From: Eubacteriales bacterium
GTDB taxonomy: Bacteria; Bacillota; Clostridia; Oscillospirales; QAKW01
Assembly (NCBI GenBank): GCA_045541535.1
Contig: JAZQJG010000034.1
Span: forward strand, 86,143 to 150,142
Direction: 5' to 3'
Length of the DNA stretch: 64,000 nt
Part shown: piece by piece, positions 4,967-63,052 of the stretch
Layout of the letters: each line of letters opens with the position of its first letter
Position numbering within the stretch: position 1 is the first letter of the stretch
Position numbers and translations under genes: made by a program
Notes under the pieces: model-generated
What the model saw: the letters and a program-made list of their open reading frames with translations, nothing else
What the model was told of the DNA's origin: nothing
Databases searched by the model: none

Positions 4967-6352
4967 TTATTTTCGGATATATTCATCAATAGCATTCGCC
5001 GCATTTTTGCCGGCGCCCATGGCAAGAATTACCGTAGCCGCTCCGGTTACGGCATCACCACCGGCAAACACGCCTTTTCTACTGGTCTGACCGGTAACCT
5101 CATCTGCAATAATGCCGCCCCAGCGCTGGGTTTCAAGGCCTTCGGTGGTAGATTTGATCAACGGATTGGGCGAAGTTCCGATAGAAACAATCACGCAATC
5201 ACAATCAATCACAAACTCGGAACCGGGCACCTCCACAGGACGCCGTCTGCCGGAAGCATCCGGTTGTCCCAGCTCCATCCGAACGCATTCAATGCCGCAA
5301 ACATTCCCCTGTTCATCACCCAAAACACGTACAGGATTGTTGAGGAGCTTGAAAAAGATTTCCTCTTCTTTTGCGTGCTCCACTTCTTCTTTACGGGCAG
5401 GAAGCTCTACCTCAGAGCGACGGTATACGACGGAAACCTCCTGTGCCCCAAGACGTTTGGCACAACGTGCCGCATCCATCGCAACGTTTCCGCCGCCAAT
5501 CACAACTACTTTTTGGGCTTTTTGGATCGGCGTTGCGCTGTCACTGCGATATGCCTTCATCAGATTAACGCGAGTCAGAAATTCATTGGCAGAATATACG
5601 CCCTTCAGATTTTCACCGGGGATGCCGAGAAACTTGGGAAGGCCCGCACCGGAGCCAATGAAAACAGCCTCAAATCCCATATCCAGTAATTCATCAACGG
5701 AAAACAGACGACCGATCACCATATTGGTTTCAATCTTCACACCAAGTTCCTTCAATCGGTCAATTTCCTGTTGAACGATCTTTTTCGGCAAGCGAAATTC
5801 AGGAATGCCATAAACCAATACACCGCCGGCACAATGAAGCGCCTCAAACACCGTCACTTCATATCCTTTTTTAGCCAGATCACCGGCACAGGTCAAACCT
5901 GCGGGGCCCGAACCGACAACCGCCACTTTGTGTCCGTTACTCTTTGGCTTGACCACTTCACGTGCCGCAAGAGCATTATGTCGGTCAGCTACAAAGCGTT
6001 CCAATCTTCCAATGGCAACAGGCTCACCTTTGATACCACGAACACAGCGTTGTTCACACTGTGTTTCCTGAGGACATACCCGTCCACAGACCGCAGGCAA
6101 AGACGAGGACTGCTGAATAACTTGATACGCTTGCTCAAAATTTCCATCACAGATTTCTTTGATAAACGACGGAATATCAATAGAAACGGGACATCCCGCC
6201 ATACAAGGCTTATTTTTACACTGTAAGCAGCGGTGCGCTTCGTCAATTGCTTGTTCTTCCGTATAGCCCAACGCTACCTCATCAAAGTTTTTGTTTCGGA
6301 TCAGCGGATCCTGGGAGGGCATCGGTTGTTTGGTCAAAGACATATTTGCCAT
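4967..6352 (-). CDS. nfnB: GltD-like NADPH-dependent oxidoreductase, NfnB/SudA-type large subunit (Fe-S + FAD/NAD(P))
   Basis: Cys clusters CLQCKNKPCMAGCP and CGRVCPQETQCEQRC; dinucleotide fold VAVVGSGPAGLTCAGDL. It sits immediately downstream of a PyrK-like subunit. Confidence 0.8.
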   Translation of the reverse strand: MANMSLTKQPMPSQDPLIRNKNFDEVALGYTEEQAIDEAHRCLQCKNKPCMAGCPVSIDIPSFIKEICDGNFEQAYQVIQQSSSLPAVCGRVCPQETQCEQRCVRGIKGEPVAIGRLERFVADRHNALAAREVVKPKSNGHKVAVVGSGPAGLTCAGDLAKKGYEVTVFEALHCAGGVLVYGIPEFRLPKKIVQQEIDRLKELGVKIETNMVIGRLFSVDELLDMGFEAVFIGSGAGLPKFLGIPGENLKGVYSANEFLTRVNLMKAYRSDSATPIQKAQKVVVIGGGNVAMDAARCAKRLGAQEVSVVYRRSEVELPARKEEVEHAKEEEIFFKLLNNPVRVLGDEQGNVCGIECVRMELGQPDASGRRRPVEVPGSEFVIDCDCVIVSIGTSPNPLIKSTTEGLETQRWGGIIADEVTGQTSRKGVFAGGDAVTGAATVILAMGAGKNAANAIDEYIRK

Positions 6353-6353
6353 C

Positions 6354-7193
6354 TCACTCTACCCCCTTAAACAAATTGCAGGTATTTTCGTGGGCTTTTC
6401 TTTCAAAATCGTGATACATAGAAGACCGCGCCATCGCTTCGTCGAAATCTACCTGATGACCATCAAATTCAGGGCCGTCAACACAGGCAAATTTCGTCTC
6501 ACCACCGACACTCAAACGACAACCTCCACACATACCCGTGCCATCAATCATAATAGGATTCATAGAAACAACAGTCTTAACACCGTATTCCTTAGTCAGT
6601 GCAGATACAAATTTCATCATAGGCAAAGGTCCGATGGCGATCACTTCATCAAACTGTTCACCGTCATCAAGTTGTTTACGCAAAGCATCGGTAACAAAGC
6701 CACGCTCACCGGCACTACCGTCATCCGTCATTAAAGTAAAATGATCACAAGAAGCCGTAAATTCATCCTGTAATATCACAAGGTTTTTGTTGCGGAAACC
6801 GACAATGCCGTGCACGCAAATGCCGCATTCGTGCATTTTTTTGGCCACAGGATATGCAATGGCGCAACCAACACCGCCGCCGATGACGGCAACCTTTTTG
6901 AGATTATCCATTTCCGTTGGCTTGCCGAGCGGCCCGACAAAATCACACAGACGATCGCCCTGACGCATATGATTCAATTTTTCCGTTGTCCCGCCAACCA
7001 CCTGAAATATGATCGTAACCGTACCACGTTCAGCATCATAATCGGCGATGGTGAGCGGAATCCGTTCACCGTCAGCATCTGTGCGCAGAATCACAAACTG
7101 ACCGGGACGGGCCTTTTTGGCAATCAACGGCGCATCAATTTCCATCAGAGTGACGGTGGGATTCAGTTCTTTTTTCAACAAAATTTCAAACAC
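6354..7193 (-). CDS. nfnA: PyrK-like FAD/[2Fe-2S] electron-transfer subunit, NfnA/SudB-type
   Basis: C-terminal motif MCGGCRLSVGGETKFACVDGPEF. The likely start is the GTG at 7193, preceded by GAGGAA. It ends 1 nt upstream of nfnB. Confidence 0.8.
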   Translation of the reverse strand: MFEILLKKELNPTVTLMEIDAPLIAKKARPGQFVILRTDADGERIPLTIADYDAERGTVTIIFQVVGGTTEKLNHMRQGDRLCDFVGPLGKPTEMDNLKKVAVIGGGVGCAIAYPVAKKMHECGICVHGIVGFRNKNLVILQDEFTASCDHFTLMTDDGSAGERGFVTDALRKQLDDGEQFDEVIAIGPLPMMKFVSALTKEYGVKTVVSMNPIMIDGTGMCGGCRLSVGGETKFACVDGPEFDGHQVDFDEAMARSSMYHDFERKAHENTCNLFKGVE

Positions 7194-13985: not shown

Positions 13986-14046
13986 GTCACTCACCTCAAA
14001 ACTATTTTATCAACATTTTCAAAAATAATACGATGTCAAAACGGAC

Positions 14047-14075
14047 AAAAACCGCAACTCCATTCCGAGTTGCGG
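14047..14075 (-). terminator. Intrinsic terminator (minus strand) upstream of pstS
   Basis: CCGCAACTC-GGAATG-GAGTTGCGG followed by TTTTT on the minus strand. Confidence 0.65.
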
Positions 14076-14098
14076 CCAATTAATGTTATATTTCAATG

Positions 14099-14137
14099 AA
14101 AAAGACCTATGCTTTGAATCAAAGCATAGGTCTTTTA
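14099..14137. terminator. Long perfect hairpin, bidirectional terminator-like
   Basis: Perfect 18-bp inverted repeat AAAAGACCTATGCTTTGA/TCAAAGCATAGGTCTTTT with T-runs on both strands. Confidence 0.7.
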
Positions 14138-14204
14138 TGGAAAGGGTGTACAAATTCGATGCCCTTTTATTTTTTGAGCTATGTGTTCGAACTCCTACAT
14201 CTTT

Positions 14205-14388
14205 TAGAATGAAATATTTTCCTTGCGGAAAATATGAAATAATTCACTACAGTGAATTGTGAAATTTTGTGCTTACGCAGAAAGTGAAATAAAATTCGCC
14301 TATTTACATTTGCGAAGCAAATATTTCATAACGATGTTATTTCATATGCGACAGCATATTTCACTCGCCGAAAGGCGAATTTCATTGA
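14205..14388. repeat. Non-coding array of short perfect hairpins punctuated by TGAAAT (left half) / ATTTCA (right half)
   Basis: GAAAT starts at 14211, 14236, 14261 and 14286, an exact 25-nt period. ATTTC starts at 14323, 14339, 14358 and 14379. The palindromes between them are 14214-14235, 14241-14258, 14266-14283 (imperfect), 14308-14322, 14344-14359 and 14365-14378. Confidence 0.7.
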
Positions 14389-14420
14389 AAAAGCGACTTG
14401 TGTGACACAAGTCGCTTTTT
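14388..14420 (-). terminator. Intrinsic terminator after tRNA-Ser
   Basis: Perfect 16-bp inverted repeat AAAAAGCGACTTGTGT/ACACAAGTCGCTTTTT, immediately 3' of the tRNA. Confidence 0.8.
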
Positions 14421-14421
14421 C

Positions 14422-14513
14422 TGGCGGAGAGAGAGGGATTCGAACCCTCGAGACGCTATCAACGCCTACACGATTTCCAATCGTGCGCCTTCGGCCATCT
14501 CAGCCATCTCTCC
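14422..14513 (-). tRNA. tRNA-Ser (anticodon GGA), CCA encoded
   Basis: The reverse complement reads GGAGAGATGGCTGAGATGGCCGAAGGCGCACGATTGGAAATCGTG...GGTTCGAATCCCTCTCTCTCCGCCA. It has anticodon loop TTGGAAA and a long variable arm. Confidence 0.9.
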
Positions 14514-18725: not shown

Positions 18726-18945
18726 AAAAACACCCCTGGCAACTCACGTTGCCAAGGGTGCGATTGCACGGTTCCACCTTGGGTTTCACTCTTACTTCTT
18801 TAACGCAGAAATACGTTATCGCTTACTGCAGTTTCGGCGATACAGCTCAGGAATGGTCTTCATCGGTTTGCTTTCGGAAGGCTTACAGCCAACGACCTCC
18901 CTCTCTGTAGAAAACGCACTCGATTACTCTTTCCGTCTTTGCTTT
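18726..18945 (-). promoter_or_regulatory. T-box leader, specifier ACC (Thr), with terminator
   Basis: On the minus strand the leader reads AGACGGAAAGAGTA...CAGAGAGG...GAAG-ACC-A-TTCCTGAGCT. The T-box core is AACCCAAGGTGGAACCGTG. The terminator is CACCCTTGGCAAC...GTTGCCAGGGGTG followed by TTTTT. The ACC specifier is at 18855-18857. Confidence 0.85.
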
Positions 18946-18951
18946 TATTTG

Positions 18952-62762: not shown

Positions 62763-63052
62763 AAAAAATAAAAATCCCTGAGATCGGAAAAACACCGATC
62801 TCAGGGACGAAAAAACTCCGTGGTACCACCCTGTTTACCGCATAAAGCGATCACTCTTCCAGCTCTATCAAGCCGAATGCCGTGGTAACGGTGGCAAACC
62901 CGTGACCGCCTACAAGTAAAAGATTCAGCAGTCCGGCTCAGGAGTGAGACTTCTTTACTCGTTCACACTGCCTCACACCAACCGACAGCTCTCTGAAATG
63001 AATGGGAATAAAGAATAATTCCGTCATCGCCTTTAAAAGGTAGTTTTAAATT
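62763..63052 (-). promoter_or_regulatory. T-box leader, specifier CUC (Leu), with terminator
   Basis: On the minus strand the leader reads GGCGATGACGG...CAGAGAGCTGTCGGTTGGTGTGAGG...GAAGT-CTC-A-CTCCTGAGCC. The T-box core is AACAGGGTGGTACCACGG. The terminator is TCCCTGAGATCGG-7 nt-CCGATCTCAGGGA followed by TTTTTATTTTTT. The CTC specifier is at 62946-62948. Confidence 0.85.

What the first reader, a model, noticed from the sequence alone, without database searches (positions are those of the whole stretch)
14205..14388. Two divergent arrays of ATTTCA-punctuated mini-hairpins in a terminator-bounded non-coding island
TGAAAT occurs four times on the plus strand at an exact 25-nt period (GAAAT at 14211, 14236, 14261, 14286). 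Its complement ATTTCA then occurs four times (ATTTC at 14323, 14339, 14358, 14379). Nearly every inter-motif segment is a short palindrome with a different sequence:
- ATATTTTCC-TTGC-GGAAAATAT
- AATTCACT-AC-AGTGAATT
- TTTGTGC-TTAC-GCAGAAA (one mismatch)
- ATTTGC-GAA-GCAAAT
- ATATGC-GACA-GCATAT
- TCGCC-GAAA-GGCGA

Read in the ATTTCA orientation, the left half lies on the minus strand and the right half on the plus strand. In that orientation the loops are mostly GNRA-like: GCAA and GTAA on the left, GACA and GAAA on the right. Pairing is therefore conserved while the stem sequence varies. In addition, AAATTCGCC (14292-14300) is perfectly complementary to GGCGAATTT (14374-14382), which competes with the last hairpin and resembles a structural switch. 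No ORF of convincing length or with an RBS explains the region. The longest plus-frame readings are 17 and 49 codons and are not in register with the 25-nt period.
Basis: seen in the sequence. Interest (0 to 1): 0.65.

Follow-up and report, generated by a model that had tools for sequence, protein, structure and literature searches.

The report
Gene-less double Gut-1 hairpin array
The "island" is a complete but gene-less copy of a dispersed repeat of gut Clostridia: two mirrored arrays of 7-base words and tiny hairpins, one arm being the orphan Rfam "Gut-1 RNA". The repeat settles just behind tRNA-gene terminators and, in other copies, sits directly in front of a small Avd-like four-helix-bundle gene. 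Its function is still unproven.

Summary
Eight TGAAAT/ATTTCA words alternate with seven unrelated perfect mini-hairpins between the tRNA-Ser(gga) terminator and a second hairpin.

It is not unique. The tRNA-proximal arm reaches the Rfam Gut-1 (RF01706) threshold, and the other arm is a weaker mirror-image match. The host genome (2.25 Mb) has 44 Gut-1-like matches, mostly in mirrored pairs of about 180 bp and often at contig ends. It also has sister arrays built on other words. Relatives carry 0-43 copies. A same-genus genome has the orthologous tRNA-Ser-pstS spacer empty.

Loops are strongly polar: C-GNA-G or C-GNNA-G on the ATTTCAC strand.

Arrays are about 50-fold enriched behind tRNA genes. 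About 15% of copies elsewhere are followed at once by a PF05635 gene. PF05635 count tracks Gut-1 count across 41 genomes (rho 0.85), and word type tracks protein clade.

Best reading: a non-autonomous copy of the cis element of a PF05635 cassette family, with the words as sites read by the protein. It fits a folded-DNA device better than an sRNA gene. No RNA data could be obtained.

The parts
14422..14513 (-). tRNA-Ser(gga). This is the stable-RNA gene behind which the element sits.
   Evidence: ARAGORN; Rfam tRNA match, 53.4 bits.
14387..14421 (.). Entry terminator T1. A perfect 17-bp hairpin flanked by an A-run and a T-run, so bidirectional. Its T-run plus CAA abuts the first word of the element (TTTTTCAA|TGAAAT on the minus strand).
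   Evidence: I2. The same terminator-CAA(C/T)GAAAT junction is seen in copies from other genomes.
14318..14387 (-). Proximal arm, which is the Rfam Gut-1 match. On the minus strand it reads CAA-TGAAAT followed by four hairpins separated by (G/A)TGAAAT. In + coordinates the hairpins are 14365-14378 (TCGCC/GGCGA), 14345-14358, 14329-14339 and 14308-14322.
   Evidence: cmscan RF01706, 54.5 bits against a gathering score of 50, E = 5e-10 locally.
14292..14302 (.). Centre segment (AAATTCGCCTA). It is complementary to the first word plus the 5' half of hairpin 1 of the proximal arm (14373-14384). This long-range helix competes with hairpin 14365-14378.
   Evidence: I6, 14 nt, 93%. Family-wide covariation of this helix: columns 5-15 with 113-123, 99.7% paired, pair types AU/UA/CG/GC. 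At least five different sequence versions exist.
14207..14295 (+). Distal arm, a mirror-image sub-threshold Gut-1 match on the plus strand. It has three hairpins (14214-14235, 14242-14259, 14266-14283) between four TGAAAT words at a 25-nt period. On the tRNA-sense strand it reads ATTTCA(C/T) words with GCAA, GT/GTAG and GTAA loops.
   Evidence: cmscan RF01706, 41.4 bits, E = 1e-6 locally, below the gathering score; (D1).
14088..14136 (.). Second terminator-like hairpin T2 (14100-14136, perfect 18-bp arms) with an adjoining word (ATATTTCAATGAAAAAG). On the tRNA-sense strand this reads hairpin-TTTTTCATTGAAAT. It looks like the entry terminator plus first word of a second cassette that has been reduced to a stump.
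   Evidence: I1; D5, 93% repeat of 14379-14393. The hairpin is 90-97% identical to the terminator behind tRNA-Ser(cga) on contig C3, and to hairpins in two congeners, one of them next to a Gut-1 match.
14052..14075 (-). Minus-strand intrinsic terminator (GGCCGCAACTC..GAGTTGCGG followed by a T-run). It closes the island before the pstS promoter region.
   Evidence: I21; read from the sequence.

Best explanation
**What it is.** Window 14207-14387 is one complete, gene-less copy of a dispersed repeat of about 180 bp found in uncultured gut Clostridia. I call it a double Gut-1 array.

**Grammar, read from the tRNA.** After the terminator come CAA(C/T)GAAAT, then four mini-hairpins separated by (G/A)TGAAAT, then a centre that repeats the 3' half of hairpin 1. 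The centre can therefore pair with the element's first 11 nt. Three more mini-hairpins follow, separated by ATTTCA(C/T).

**Proposed mechanism.**
- The words are the functional, sequence-specific sites.
- The hairpins have sequences that are free to vary but pairing that is conserved. They hold the words single-stranded and evenly spaced.
- The element is the cis part of a small cassette family whose complete members carry a PF05635 (Avd-like, four-helix-bundle, probably pentameric) gene directly after the distal arm.
- These cassettes settle immediately behind intrinsic terminators of stable-RNA genes.
- I infer that the PF05635 protein reads the words. The loop polarity and perfect stems suggest the arrays act as folded single-stranded DNA (REPIN- or attC-like) rather than as a free-standing small RNA.

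**Status of this copy.** It has no adjacent gene. The genome has no PF05635 gene of the GTGAAAT-linked clade. The copy is therefore a non-autonomous member or a relic.

**Shown:** family identity, copy number, covariation, loop polarity, enrichment behind tRNA genes, an empty orthologous site, and adjacency and co-occurrence with PF05635.

**Inferred:** that the protein binds the words, that the active form is DNA, and that the cassettes move.
For: **Identity**
- RF01706 matches at 54.5 bits (minus strand) and 41.4 bits (plus strand).

**Repeat family**
- The own genome has 44 matches at E <= 1, 18 of them over the cut-off. Most are in mirrored pairs and many lie at contig ends.
- An unbiased screen for periodic 6-mers ranks ATATCA/TGATAT and TGAAAT/ATTTCA at or among the top.
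- Chains of three or more hairpins: 58, against 5 in shuffled sequence.
- Six full GTGAAAT copies align end to end with unrelated flanks and compensatory stem changes.

**Patchiness**
- Relatives carry 0-43 copies. 27 of 41 genomes have any, and counts range from 0 to 39 within the genus.
- The tRNA-Ser(gga)-to-pstS spacer is empty in congener G001. In G005 and G031 it is occupied by arrays of the same architecture built on GTTATAT/GTGATAT words.

**Structure**
- 29 copies: 98.2% of cells paired against 76.6% in shuffles (0/500). 141 cells changed on both sides against 37.8. Slid controls reach at most 53.6%.

**Loop polarity**
- On the ATTTCA strand 134 of 239 distinct hairpins have G..A loops. 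These are GNA 73, GNRA 32 and GNNA 29, and 128 are closed by C:G. Only 5 have the mirror type.

**Link to tRNA genes**
- 11 of 45 tRNA genes against 12 of 1831 ORFs have an array within 400 nt downstream. Odds ratio 49, p = 5e-13.
- In other species, 22 of 66 arrays lie within 300 nt of a tRNA (or, in one case, a tmRNA) gene. In 21 of these the array is downstream.

**Link to PF05635**
- The own genome has 6 matches, representing 5 genes. Three lie in the order tRNA, terminator, GTGATG hairpin array, promoter, gene.
- About 10 of 66 foreign arrays are followed directly by a PF05635 ORF.
- Counts of Gut-1 and PF05635 correlate across 41 genomes. Spearman 0.85, p = 2e-12. All 16 genomes with 5 or more Gut-1 copies have the gene.
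- The upstream word type needs 14 changes on the protein tree, where the minimum is 13. Shuffled labels need 30.6 on average, and none of 200 shuffles was as low.

**Other**
- No sigma-70-type promoter lies inside the island.
- In locus L059 a 37-nt exact direct repeat flanks a 765-bp insert. The insert holds a terminator, a double array and a PF05635 gene.
Against: - An RNA role is therefore not excluded.
- In two foreign loci the distal arm ends 15-25 nt before the PF05635 start codon. The array must then be part of that mRNA's leader.
- Clustering of word type with protein clade, and its co-segregation with the N-terminal 40 residues, can also arise from physical linkage of array and gene.
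- The genome-level correlation is not corrected for phylogeny.
- This genome's most abundant array types (GTGAAAT, ATGATATA) have no cognate PF05635 gene in the assembly. The arrays therefore persist without a matching reader.
- No target-site duplication or transposase was found for the GTGAAAT copies.
- The wobble-pair test for the folding strand is weak. Arrays show G.T 3 and A.C 9 in 1424 pairs. Terminators show 27 and 16 in 2605 pairs.
- PF05635 has no demonstrated biochemical activity outside diversity-generating retroelements. The closest solved structure, 2RLD, is labelled uncharacterized.
Confidence: 0.5

Rival explanations
1. RNA-level partner of the cassette. The array is transcribed, either by read-through from the tRNA gene or as the 5' leader of the PF05635 mRNA. 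It works as a structured RNA that binds the PF05635 protein, for autoregulation, as a ribonucleoprotein or as a sponge. Solo copies such as this one would act as decoys or be inert.
For: - The Rfam Gut-1 model is an RNA model and matches.
- Covariation is strong.
- Six copies, including this one, have G-U at the first pair of the long-range helix on the tRNA-sense strand.
- In loci L117 and L138 the array ends 15-25 nt before the start codon, so it must lie in the mRNA leader.
- Avd, the best-studied PF05635 member, binds the retroelement RNA (background knowledge, not tested here).
Against: - Strong bidirectional terminators separate the array from the tRNA gene.
- There is no internal promoter.
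- Most cassettes place a good promoter between the array and the gene.
- C-GNA-G triloops outnumber GNRA tetraloops. That is the signature of extra-stable DNA mini-hairpins (background knowledge).
- The mirror grammar makes both strands look alike, which an RNA read from one strand does not need.
Confidence: 0.25
2. Host-domesticated REP/BIME-type structural repeat. The hairpin ladder acts behind highly transcribed stable-RNA genes as a back-up bidirectional terminator, a supercoil or gyrase site, or an exonuclease barrier. The PF05635 link would be incidental co-location in the same safe-haven spacers.
For: - The position is always just after terminators of tRNA and other highly expressed genes.
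- The element has a two-fold symmetric design.
- Copies persist in this genome without a cognate PF05635 gene.
Against: - Such roles do not need conserved 7-nt words that change in concert across all eight positions of an element.
- Congeners do without the element at the same tRNA-Ser locus.
- The co-occurrence with PF05635 is tight: 22 genomes have both, 5 only Gut-1, 1 only PF05635, 13 neither. Fisher p = 6e-6.
Confidence: 0.13
3. Two convergent free-standing small-RNA genes, which is the Rfam classification "Gene; sRNA".
For: - An Rfam match above the gathering score.
- Weinberg et al. 2010 listed Gut-1 as a likely non-coding RNA.
Against: - No promoter.
- 44 copies per genome, many at contig ends.
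- The motif always forms half of a mirrored composite.
- It is absent from the orthologous site in a congener.
- The original description rested on 43 metagenomic fragments with no genome context.
Confidence: 0.07
4. A REPIN mobilised by a RAYT (IS200-like Y1 transposase).
For: - The genome encodes three Y1_Tnp-domain proteins of about 260 aa.
- The arrays are inverted pairs of hairpin units.
Against: - The two stronger Y1 matches (contigs C6 and C13) are flanked by a different palindrome, GGGGAC(N)GTCCCC. None of the three has a word-hairpin array beside it.
- Stems vary between units and copies, unlike REP sequences.
Confidence: 0.03

Closest known systems
Gut-1 RNA motif (Rfam RF01706; Weinberg et al. 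2010, Genome Biol 11:R31, PMC2864571)
   Same: - Three to four short hairpins separated by GUGAAAU, including the UCGCC/GGCGA first stem.
- Found in gut Clostridia.
- The proximal arm passes the family threshold.
   Different: - The published motif is a single arm described from 43 metagenomic fragments, with no genomic context or function.
- Here it is half of a mirrored composite of about 180 bp with a covarying long-range helix.
- It is multi-copy, lies behind tRNA terminators and is linked to PF05635 genes.
- Sister families use other words, which the Rfam model detects only weakly.
REP/BIME elements and REPINs of Proteobacteria
   Same: - Short extragenic palindromic units.
- Arranged in inverted pairs.
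- Tens of copies per genome.
- Placed at the 3' ends of transcription units.
- Hairpin pairing is maintained by compensatory change.
   Different: - No RAYT association.
- The conserved part is the single-stranded word, not the stem.
- Each element holds seven different hairpins.
- There is a strong preference for stable-RNA genes.
23S rRNA intervening sequences carrying a PF05635 ORF, and the Avd accessory protein of diversity-generating retroelements
   Same: - The same protein family: PF05635 / TIGR02436 four-helix bundle.
- A small insert with structured, inverted-repeat ends that lodges in or beside a stable-RNA gene.
   Different: - Here the insert lies behind tRNA terminators, not inside 23S rRNA.
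- No reverse transcriptase or template repeat was seen next to the cassettes examined.
- The copy in this window lacks the gene altogether.
Integron attC sites
   Same: - Structure is conserved while sequence varies.
- Short conserved words sit at fixed places.
- The proposed active form is folded ssDNA.
- The sites bound small gene cassettes.
   Different: - No integron integrase or cassette array was examined or found.
- The array lies 5' of the gene, and the gene has its own promoter.
- The architecture is a multi-hairpin ladder, not a single bulged hairpin.

Membership tests
Gut-1 RNA (RF01706) | Covariance-model score at or above the curated gathering score (50 bits) | tested here: met
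   Proximal arm 14318-14387 (-): 54.5 bits. Distal arm 14207-14295 (+): 41.4 bits, below threshold, E = 1e-6 in the local search.
Gut-1 RNA (RF01706) | Three consecutive short hairpins separated by GUGAAAU-type linkers, with covarying stems | tested here: met
   The model alignment covers positions 1-77 with all three stems. Family-wide covariation is shown.
Gut-1 RNA (RF01706) | It is an expressed non-coding RNA (Rfam type: Gene; sRNA) | not testable with these tools
No promoter is predicted inside the island.
REP/BIME/REPIN | Dispersed extragenic palindromic units arranged in inverted pairs | tested here: met
   44 matches in the genome, mostly mirrored pairs in intergenic DNA.
REP/BIME/REPIN | A cognate RAYT (Y1 transposase) gene flanked by the same repeat | tested here: not met
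   The genome has three Y1_Tnp genes. The two stronger matches (C6, C13) are flanked by GGGGACNGTCCCC palindromes, and none has a Gut-1 array beside it.
REP/BIME/REPIN | Stem sequence conserved among copies | tested here: not met
   Stems differ between units and between copies. The words are what is conserved.
MITE (miniature inverted-repeat transposable element) | Terminal inverted repeats plus a target-site duplication, with a related autonomous transposon | tested here: not met
   The ends are word-level inverted repeats only (CGAAAT ... ATTTCAC). No TSD is seen in six aligned copies or in a direct-repeat search. No transposase is linked.
PF05635 cassette (Avd-like / 23S-IVS-type insert) | A PF05635 ORF directly downstream of the distal arm | tested here: not met
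   No such ORF lies in 14040-14207. It is met for other arrays in this genome (C11, C25, C72) and for about 10 of 66 foreign loci. The window copy is therefore a gene-less member.
PF05635 cassette (Avd-like / 23S-IVS-type insert) | Placed in or directly behind a stable-RNA gene | tested here: met
   It lies behind tRNA-Ser(gga) and its terminator. Genome-wide odds ratio 49. In other species the array is downstream in 21 of 22 adjacent cases.
PF05635 cassette (Avd-like / 23S-IVS-type insert) | The protein binds the array words | not testable with these tools
   Only indirect evidence is available. Word type needs 14 changes on the protein tree (minimum 13; shuffled mean 30.6). Genome co-occurrence gives rho 0.85.
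Integron attC / gene cassette | An IntI-type integrase and a tandem cassette array with attC at each 3' end | not tested
   No integrase search was run. The arrays lie 5' of genes that have their own promoters, which is unlike attC.
Type III toxin-antitoxin RNA repeats / CRISPR | Near-identical tandem repeat units next to a toxin or cas gene | tested here: not met
The units share only the 6-7-nt word.

The most novel reading that the evidence does not exclude
Gut-1 double arrays are not RNA genes. They are the folded-DNA landing or recognition sites of a previously unrecognised class of tiny mobile cassettes. The cassettes home to the 3' flank of intrinsic terminators of stable-RNA genes.

Each cassette's Avd-like PF05635 pentamer reads its own 7-nt word, displayed between spacer hairpins. 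This gives a simple protein-word code in which the N-terminal helix sets the specificity. Many orthogonal families could then coexist in one genome (GTGAAAT, GTGATG, GTGAAG, GATGTT, GTTATAT and others).

Solo arrays such as this one would be the non-autonomous members of those families.
Probability: 0.3. Interest if true: 0.8.

Novelty: new member of a known kind. Interest (0 to 1): 0.5.

Why it matters
Gut-1 has been listed in Rfam since 2010 as an orphan "sRNA" known only from gut metagenome fragments. PF05635 four-helix-bundle proteins are common but have no assigned function outside diversity-generating retroelements.

Genome context now shows four things:
- The motif is half of a mirrored, multi-copy element.
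- The element has a strong preference for the spot behind tRNA terminators.
- It has a polar DNA-hairpin-like loop signature.
- It has a statistical and physical link to PF05635 genes whose clades match the array words.

This turns two unexplained objects into one testable hypothesis, namely that the protein binds the word array. It also cautions against annotating these loci as sRNA genes. On a practical level, the arrays account for many contig breaks in assemblies of gut Clostridia.

This particular copy adds no new kind of object. It is a clean, complete, gene-less example with an empty orthologous site in a congener.

Tried and rejected
- **RAYT/IS200 mobilisation.** Rejected. The two stronger Y1 matches are flanked by another palindrome, and none has a word-hairpin array beside it.
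- **Phage or plasmid origin.** No blastn match in the phage or plasmid collections. A pattern scan of IMG/VR contigs gave 119 stretches. Only about 10 are true hairpin arrays and the rest are unrelated tandem repeats. This was not pursued, because prophage calls next to tRNA genes may simply include host flank.
- **Wobble-pair asymmetry to pick the folding strand.** Too few non-Watson-Crick pairs to decide. Arrays show G.T 3 and A.C 9 in 1424 pairs. The terminator control is also low.
- **Target-site duplications.** None found around the GTGAAAT copies. Only locus L059 shows a 37-nt flanking direct repeat.
- **A displaced tRNA 3' fragment as an att-like repeat.** Window 14185-14196 resembles a T-loop only weakly (I14), and no convincing T-arm can be drawn.
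- **Alignment of the proximal arm.** MAFFT mis-registered the proximal arm for three sequences, including the window copy. Pair counts were therefore restricted to the long-range helix and two distal hairpins.
- **Flanking proteins.** Proteins beside the GTGAAAT and ATGATATA arrays in this genome are mostly orphans with no shared family.
- **Literature.** Only the original description and one structure-prediction benchmark mention Gut-1. Almost nothing is indexed on PF05635.
Full report
**Observation**

The sequence is as described. TGAAAT lies at 14210, 14235, 14260 and 14285 on the plus strand. ATTTCA lies at 14323, 14339, 14358 and 14379. Seven short, mutually unrelated palindromes fill the spaces between them.

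The three-word 25-nt pattern was never found in 100 dinucleotide-preserving shuffles of the window. Perfect inverted repeats at 14100-14136 and 14387-14421 bracket the island. AAATTCGCC (14292-14300) is complementary to GGCGAATTT (14374-14382). tRNA-Ser(gga) occupies 14422-14513 on the minus strand. Only short mechanical ORFs cross the region.

**What it is**

A scan of the window against Rfam puts 14318-14387 (minus strand) in family RF01706, Gut-1 RNA, at 54.5 bits against a gathering score of 50. A local scan finds a second, mirror-image match at 14207-14295 (plus strand) at 41.4 bits.

Gut-1 was described in 2010 from 43 human-gut metagenome fragments. It was called a probable non-coding RNA. 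No organism, context or function was given. The paper library holds nothing further about its biology.

**It is a repeat family, not a locus**

The assembly that holds the window is 2.25 Mb in 118 contigs, with 50.7% G+C.
- It has 44 Gut-1 matches at E <= 1, 18 of them over the cut-off. Most come as a plus-strand match followed 10-80 nt later by a minus-strand match. Many lie within 300 nt of a contig end.
- An unbiased screen for 6-mers recurring at 17-32-nt spacing ranks ATATCA/TGATAT and TGAAAT/ATTTCA at or among the top.
- Chains of three or more perfect mini-hairpins number 58, against 5 in shuffled sequence. They fall into sister families built on other words: GTGATAT, ATGATATA, ACGATG and (G)TGATG.
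- Six full GTGAAAT-type copies align from CAA(C/T)GAAAT to ATTTCAC(T). Their flanks are unrelated and their stems differ by compensatory changes.

Among 41 related genomes, copy number runs from 0 to 43, and from 0 to 39 within the genus. A pattern scan of one genome per species mostly returns Clostridia, Eubacteriales, Oscillospiraceae, Acutalibacteraceae and Ruminococcaceae MAGs from human and ruminant guts.

**The orthologous site**

I compared the region downstream of tRNA-Ser(gga) in twelve genomes.
- Congener G001 has tRNA, terminator and then pstS within about 130 nt, with no array. This is an empty site.
- G005 (same genus) and G031 (another family of the order) have an element of the same architecture at this spot, including the UCGCC/GGCGA first hairpin. 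All of its words are GTTATAT/GTGATAT instead of GTGAAAT.
- G002 has a partial TATATCAT array.
- The other seven genomes show no array there, although in two of them fewer than 200 nt of downstream sequence were available to read.

Presence is therefore polymorphic. The words of an element change in concert.

**Structure**

I aligned 29 full-length copies from this and other species.
- RNAalifold selects two distal hairpins and an 11-bp long-range helix. The helix joins the first word plus the 5' half of hairpin 1 to the centre of the element.
- On this structure 98.2% of cells are paired, against 76.6% in column shuffles (0 of 500 as high).
- 141 cells carry changes on both sides, against 37.8 in shuffles.
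- Sliding the partners by one to three columns gives at most 53.6% paired.
- The long-range helix is 99.7% paired, with AU, UA, CG and GC variants. At least five sequence versions exist.

Three segments covary: the 5' half of hairpin 1, its 3' half, and the centre. That fits two alternative folds. At the DNA level it equally fits an inverted repeat enclosing the proximal arm.

**Which strand, and DNA or RNA?**

Stems are almost purely Watson-Crick. Only 19 of 1424 pairs are non-canonical: G.T 3 and A.C 9 in the TGAAAT orientation. Intrinsic terminators of the same genome, scored the same way, are also nearly perfect (G.T 27, A.C 16 of 2605). This test therefore decides little.

The loops are more telling. 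On the ATTTCA(C) strand, 134 of 239 distinct hairpins have G...A loops. These are GNA 73, GNRA 32 and GNNA 29, and 128 of them are closed by C:G. Only 5 show the mirror type.

C-GNA-G triloops, as in GCGAAGC, are known from the literature as exceptionally stable DNA mini-hairpins. I did not test that here. GNRA tetraloops would suit either DNA or RNA.

Because the two arms are mirrored, each strand carries one arm in the stable-loop orientation. The element therefore looks the same from both strands.

No sigma-70-type promoter is predicted inside the terminator-bounded island. The only ones found belong to the tRNA gene and to the plus-strand 751-aa ORF beyond the tRNA gene.

**Context**

In this genome, 11 of 45 tRNA genes against 12 of 1831 crude ORFs have a word-hairpin array within 400 nt downstream. 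The odds ratio is 49 and p = 5e-13. The strict detector missed the window copy itself, so this is a lower bound.

Of 66 verified arrays from other species, 22 lie within 300 nt of a tRNA (or, in one case, a tmRNA) gene. In 21 of those the array is downstream. The junction is stereotyped: terminator T-run, then CAA(C/T)GAAAT.

**The protein link**

Earlier notes of this scan pointed to PF05635. I tested that lead here.
- The genome has six PF05635 matches, representing five genes (family confirmed). Only 1 of 14 control genomes has any.
- Three of the genes lie in the order tRNA, terminator, GTGATG array, promoter, gene. That array has four hairpins, a centre complementary to hairpin 1 and a short reverse arm. 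Two of these loci are cut by a contig start, so the tRNA is only partly seen in one (C25) and not seen in the other (C72). The other two genes carry tandem GAATAGT-type words.
- In the foreign loci, about 10 of 66 arrays are followed directly by a PF05635 ORF in the orientation tRNA, array, gene.
- Across 41 genomes the counts of Gut-1 and PF05635 correlate (Spearman 0.85, p = 2e-12). For presence and absence, 22 genomes have both, 5 only Gut-1, 1 only PF05635 and 13 neither (Fisher p = 6e-6). All 16 genomes with five or more Gut-1 copies have the gene. This is not corrected for phylogeny.
- I took 53 PF05635 loci, mostly from relatives with a few from other species, and labelled 41 by the word repeated upstream: GTGAAAT, ATGAAAT, GTGATG, ATGATG, GTGAAG, ATGAAG, GATGTT, GTTATAT, GTGATAT, GCTAAAT and others. 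The labels need 14 changes on the protein tree, where the minimum is 13. Shuffled labels need 30.6 on average, and none of 200 shuffles was as low.
- The word type follows the N-terminal 40 or so residues even where the C-terminal half belongs to another clade. Because array and gene are adjacent, linkage alone could produce this clustering.

What linkage does not explain is why all eight or nine words of an element are the same and change together.

The closest solved structure is 2RLD, an uncharacterized protein deposited with five chains.

**This copy**

The window element has every canonical part: four proximal hairpins, the centre, three distal hairpins and the terminal words. It has no gene. 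Some 70 nt after the distal arm comes hairpin 14100-14136.

That hairpin and the word beside it resemble the entry terminator of other cassettes. It is 90-97% identical to the terminator behind tRNA-Ser(cga) on contig C3 and to hairpins in two congeners. I read it as the stump of a second cassette.

The genome has no PF05635 gene of the GTGAAAT-linked clade. This copy is therefore non-autonomous or a relic.

**Mobility**

Direct evidence for mobility is thin.
- There is no target-site duplication in the aligned copies.
- One foreign locus, L059, has a 37-nt exact direct repeat of the upstream gene's terminator. The repeat flanks a 765-bp insert that holds a tRNA-3'-like piece, a terminator, a double array and a PF05635 gene.
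- The three Y1 transposases of the genome are not linked to these arrays; the two stronger matches sit beside a different palindrome.
- There are no matches in the phage or plasmid collections. About ten genuine arrays lie on IMG/VR contigs.

**Verdict**

The object is a new member of a known but unexplained family, Gut-1.

The best-supported reading has several parts. The element is a gene-less copy of the cis element of PF05635 cassettes, which lodge behind terminators of stable-RNA genes. Its words are read by the protein, and its hairpins present the words as folded single strands, probably of DNA.

I am about 95% sure of the identity and family properties. I am about 50% sure of the cassette and reader model as a whole, and less sure of DNA over RNA.

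Noticed in passing
window 14088-14136: A perfect 18-bp hairpin with the flank ATATTTCAATGAAAAAG. It repeats the flank of the tRNA-Ser terminator (14379-14393). The hairpin is 90-97% identical to the terminator behind tRNA-Ser(cga) on contig C3 and to hairpins in two congeners. It looks like the entry terminator plus first word of a second, decapitated cassette.
   Followed up: partly
own genome, contigs C17, C33, C34:1344-1561, C49, C54, C76, C90, C91, C98 (outside the window): The most abundant array family in this genome uses the word ATGATATA/TATATCAT with CA...TG-closed hairpins. It also lies behind tRNA genes (Asn, Val, Cys, Ala). No PF05635 gene with this exact word was seen among the 53 loci inspected.
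   Followed up: partly
own genome C100:3650-4500 and C39/C61: Two PF05635 genes are flanked by tandem or inverted heptamer words without hairpins: (GAATAGT)n upstream and its inverse downstream. This suggests the word, not the hairpin, is the constant partner of this protein family.
   Followed up: no
PF05635 proteins, alignment: The proteins are mosaic. The contig C11 and C72 proteins (GTGATG words) share a C-terminal half with GTGAAAT-clade proteins (77% overall identity to L188). Their N-terminal 40 or so residues match other GTGATG-linked proteins. Word type follows residues 12-40.
   Followed up: partly
L059:664-1466 (Acutalibacteraceae MAG): A 37-nt exact direct repeat, the terminator of the upstream gene, flanks a 765-bp insert. 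The insert holds a tRNA-3'-like stem ending in CCA, a terminator, a double Gut-1 array and a PF05635 gene. This is the clearest insertion footprint seen.
   Followed up: partly
L161 (G031), downstream of tRNA-Ser(gga): Two elements lie in tandem, one with GTTATAT/GTGATAT words and one with GTGAAAT words. Each is preceded by a near-identical terminator and followed by the same 20-nt flank (TAAAAACGNACGGTTATG). The duplicated unit therefore includes the terminator.
   Followed up: no
own genome C6:13096-13870 and C13:23676-24450: RAYT-like Y1 transposases of 258 aa, flanked by GGGGAC(N)GTCCCC palindromes. This is a separate, classical REP/RAYT system in the same genome.
   Followed up: partly
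L032 (Akkermansia sp. MAG) 5700-7000: A PF05635 gene is flanked on both sides by GC-rich double arrays with GTTATAT/ATATAAC words. The architecture therefore extends beyond Clostridia, into Verrucomicrobiota.
   Followed up: no
IMG/VR loci L304, L308, L313, L324, L209, L278, L283, L284, L287, L296: About ten genuine Gut-1-type arrays lie on contigs classed as viral. It is unclear whether they are phage DNA or host flank next to tRNA integration sites.
   Followed up: no
window 18751-18948 and 62800-63036 (minus strand): Two T-box leaders are called by Rfam at 103.9 and 118.3 bits. Ordinary features.
   Followed up: no
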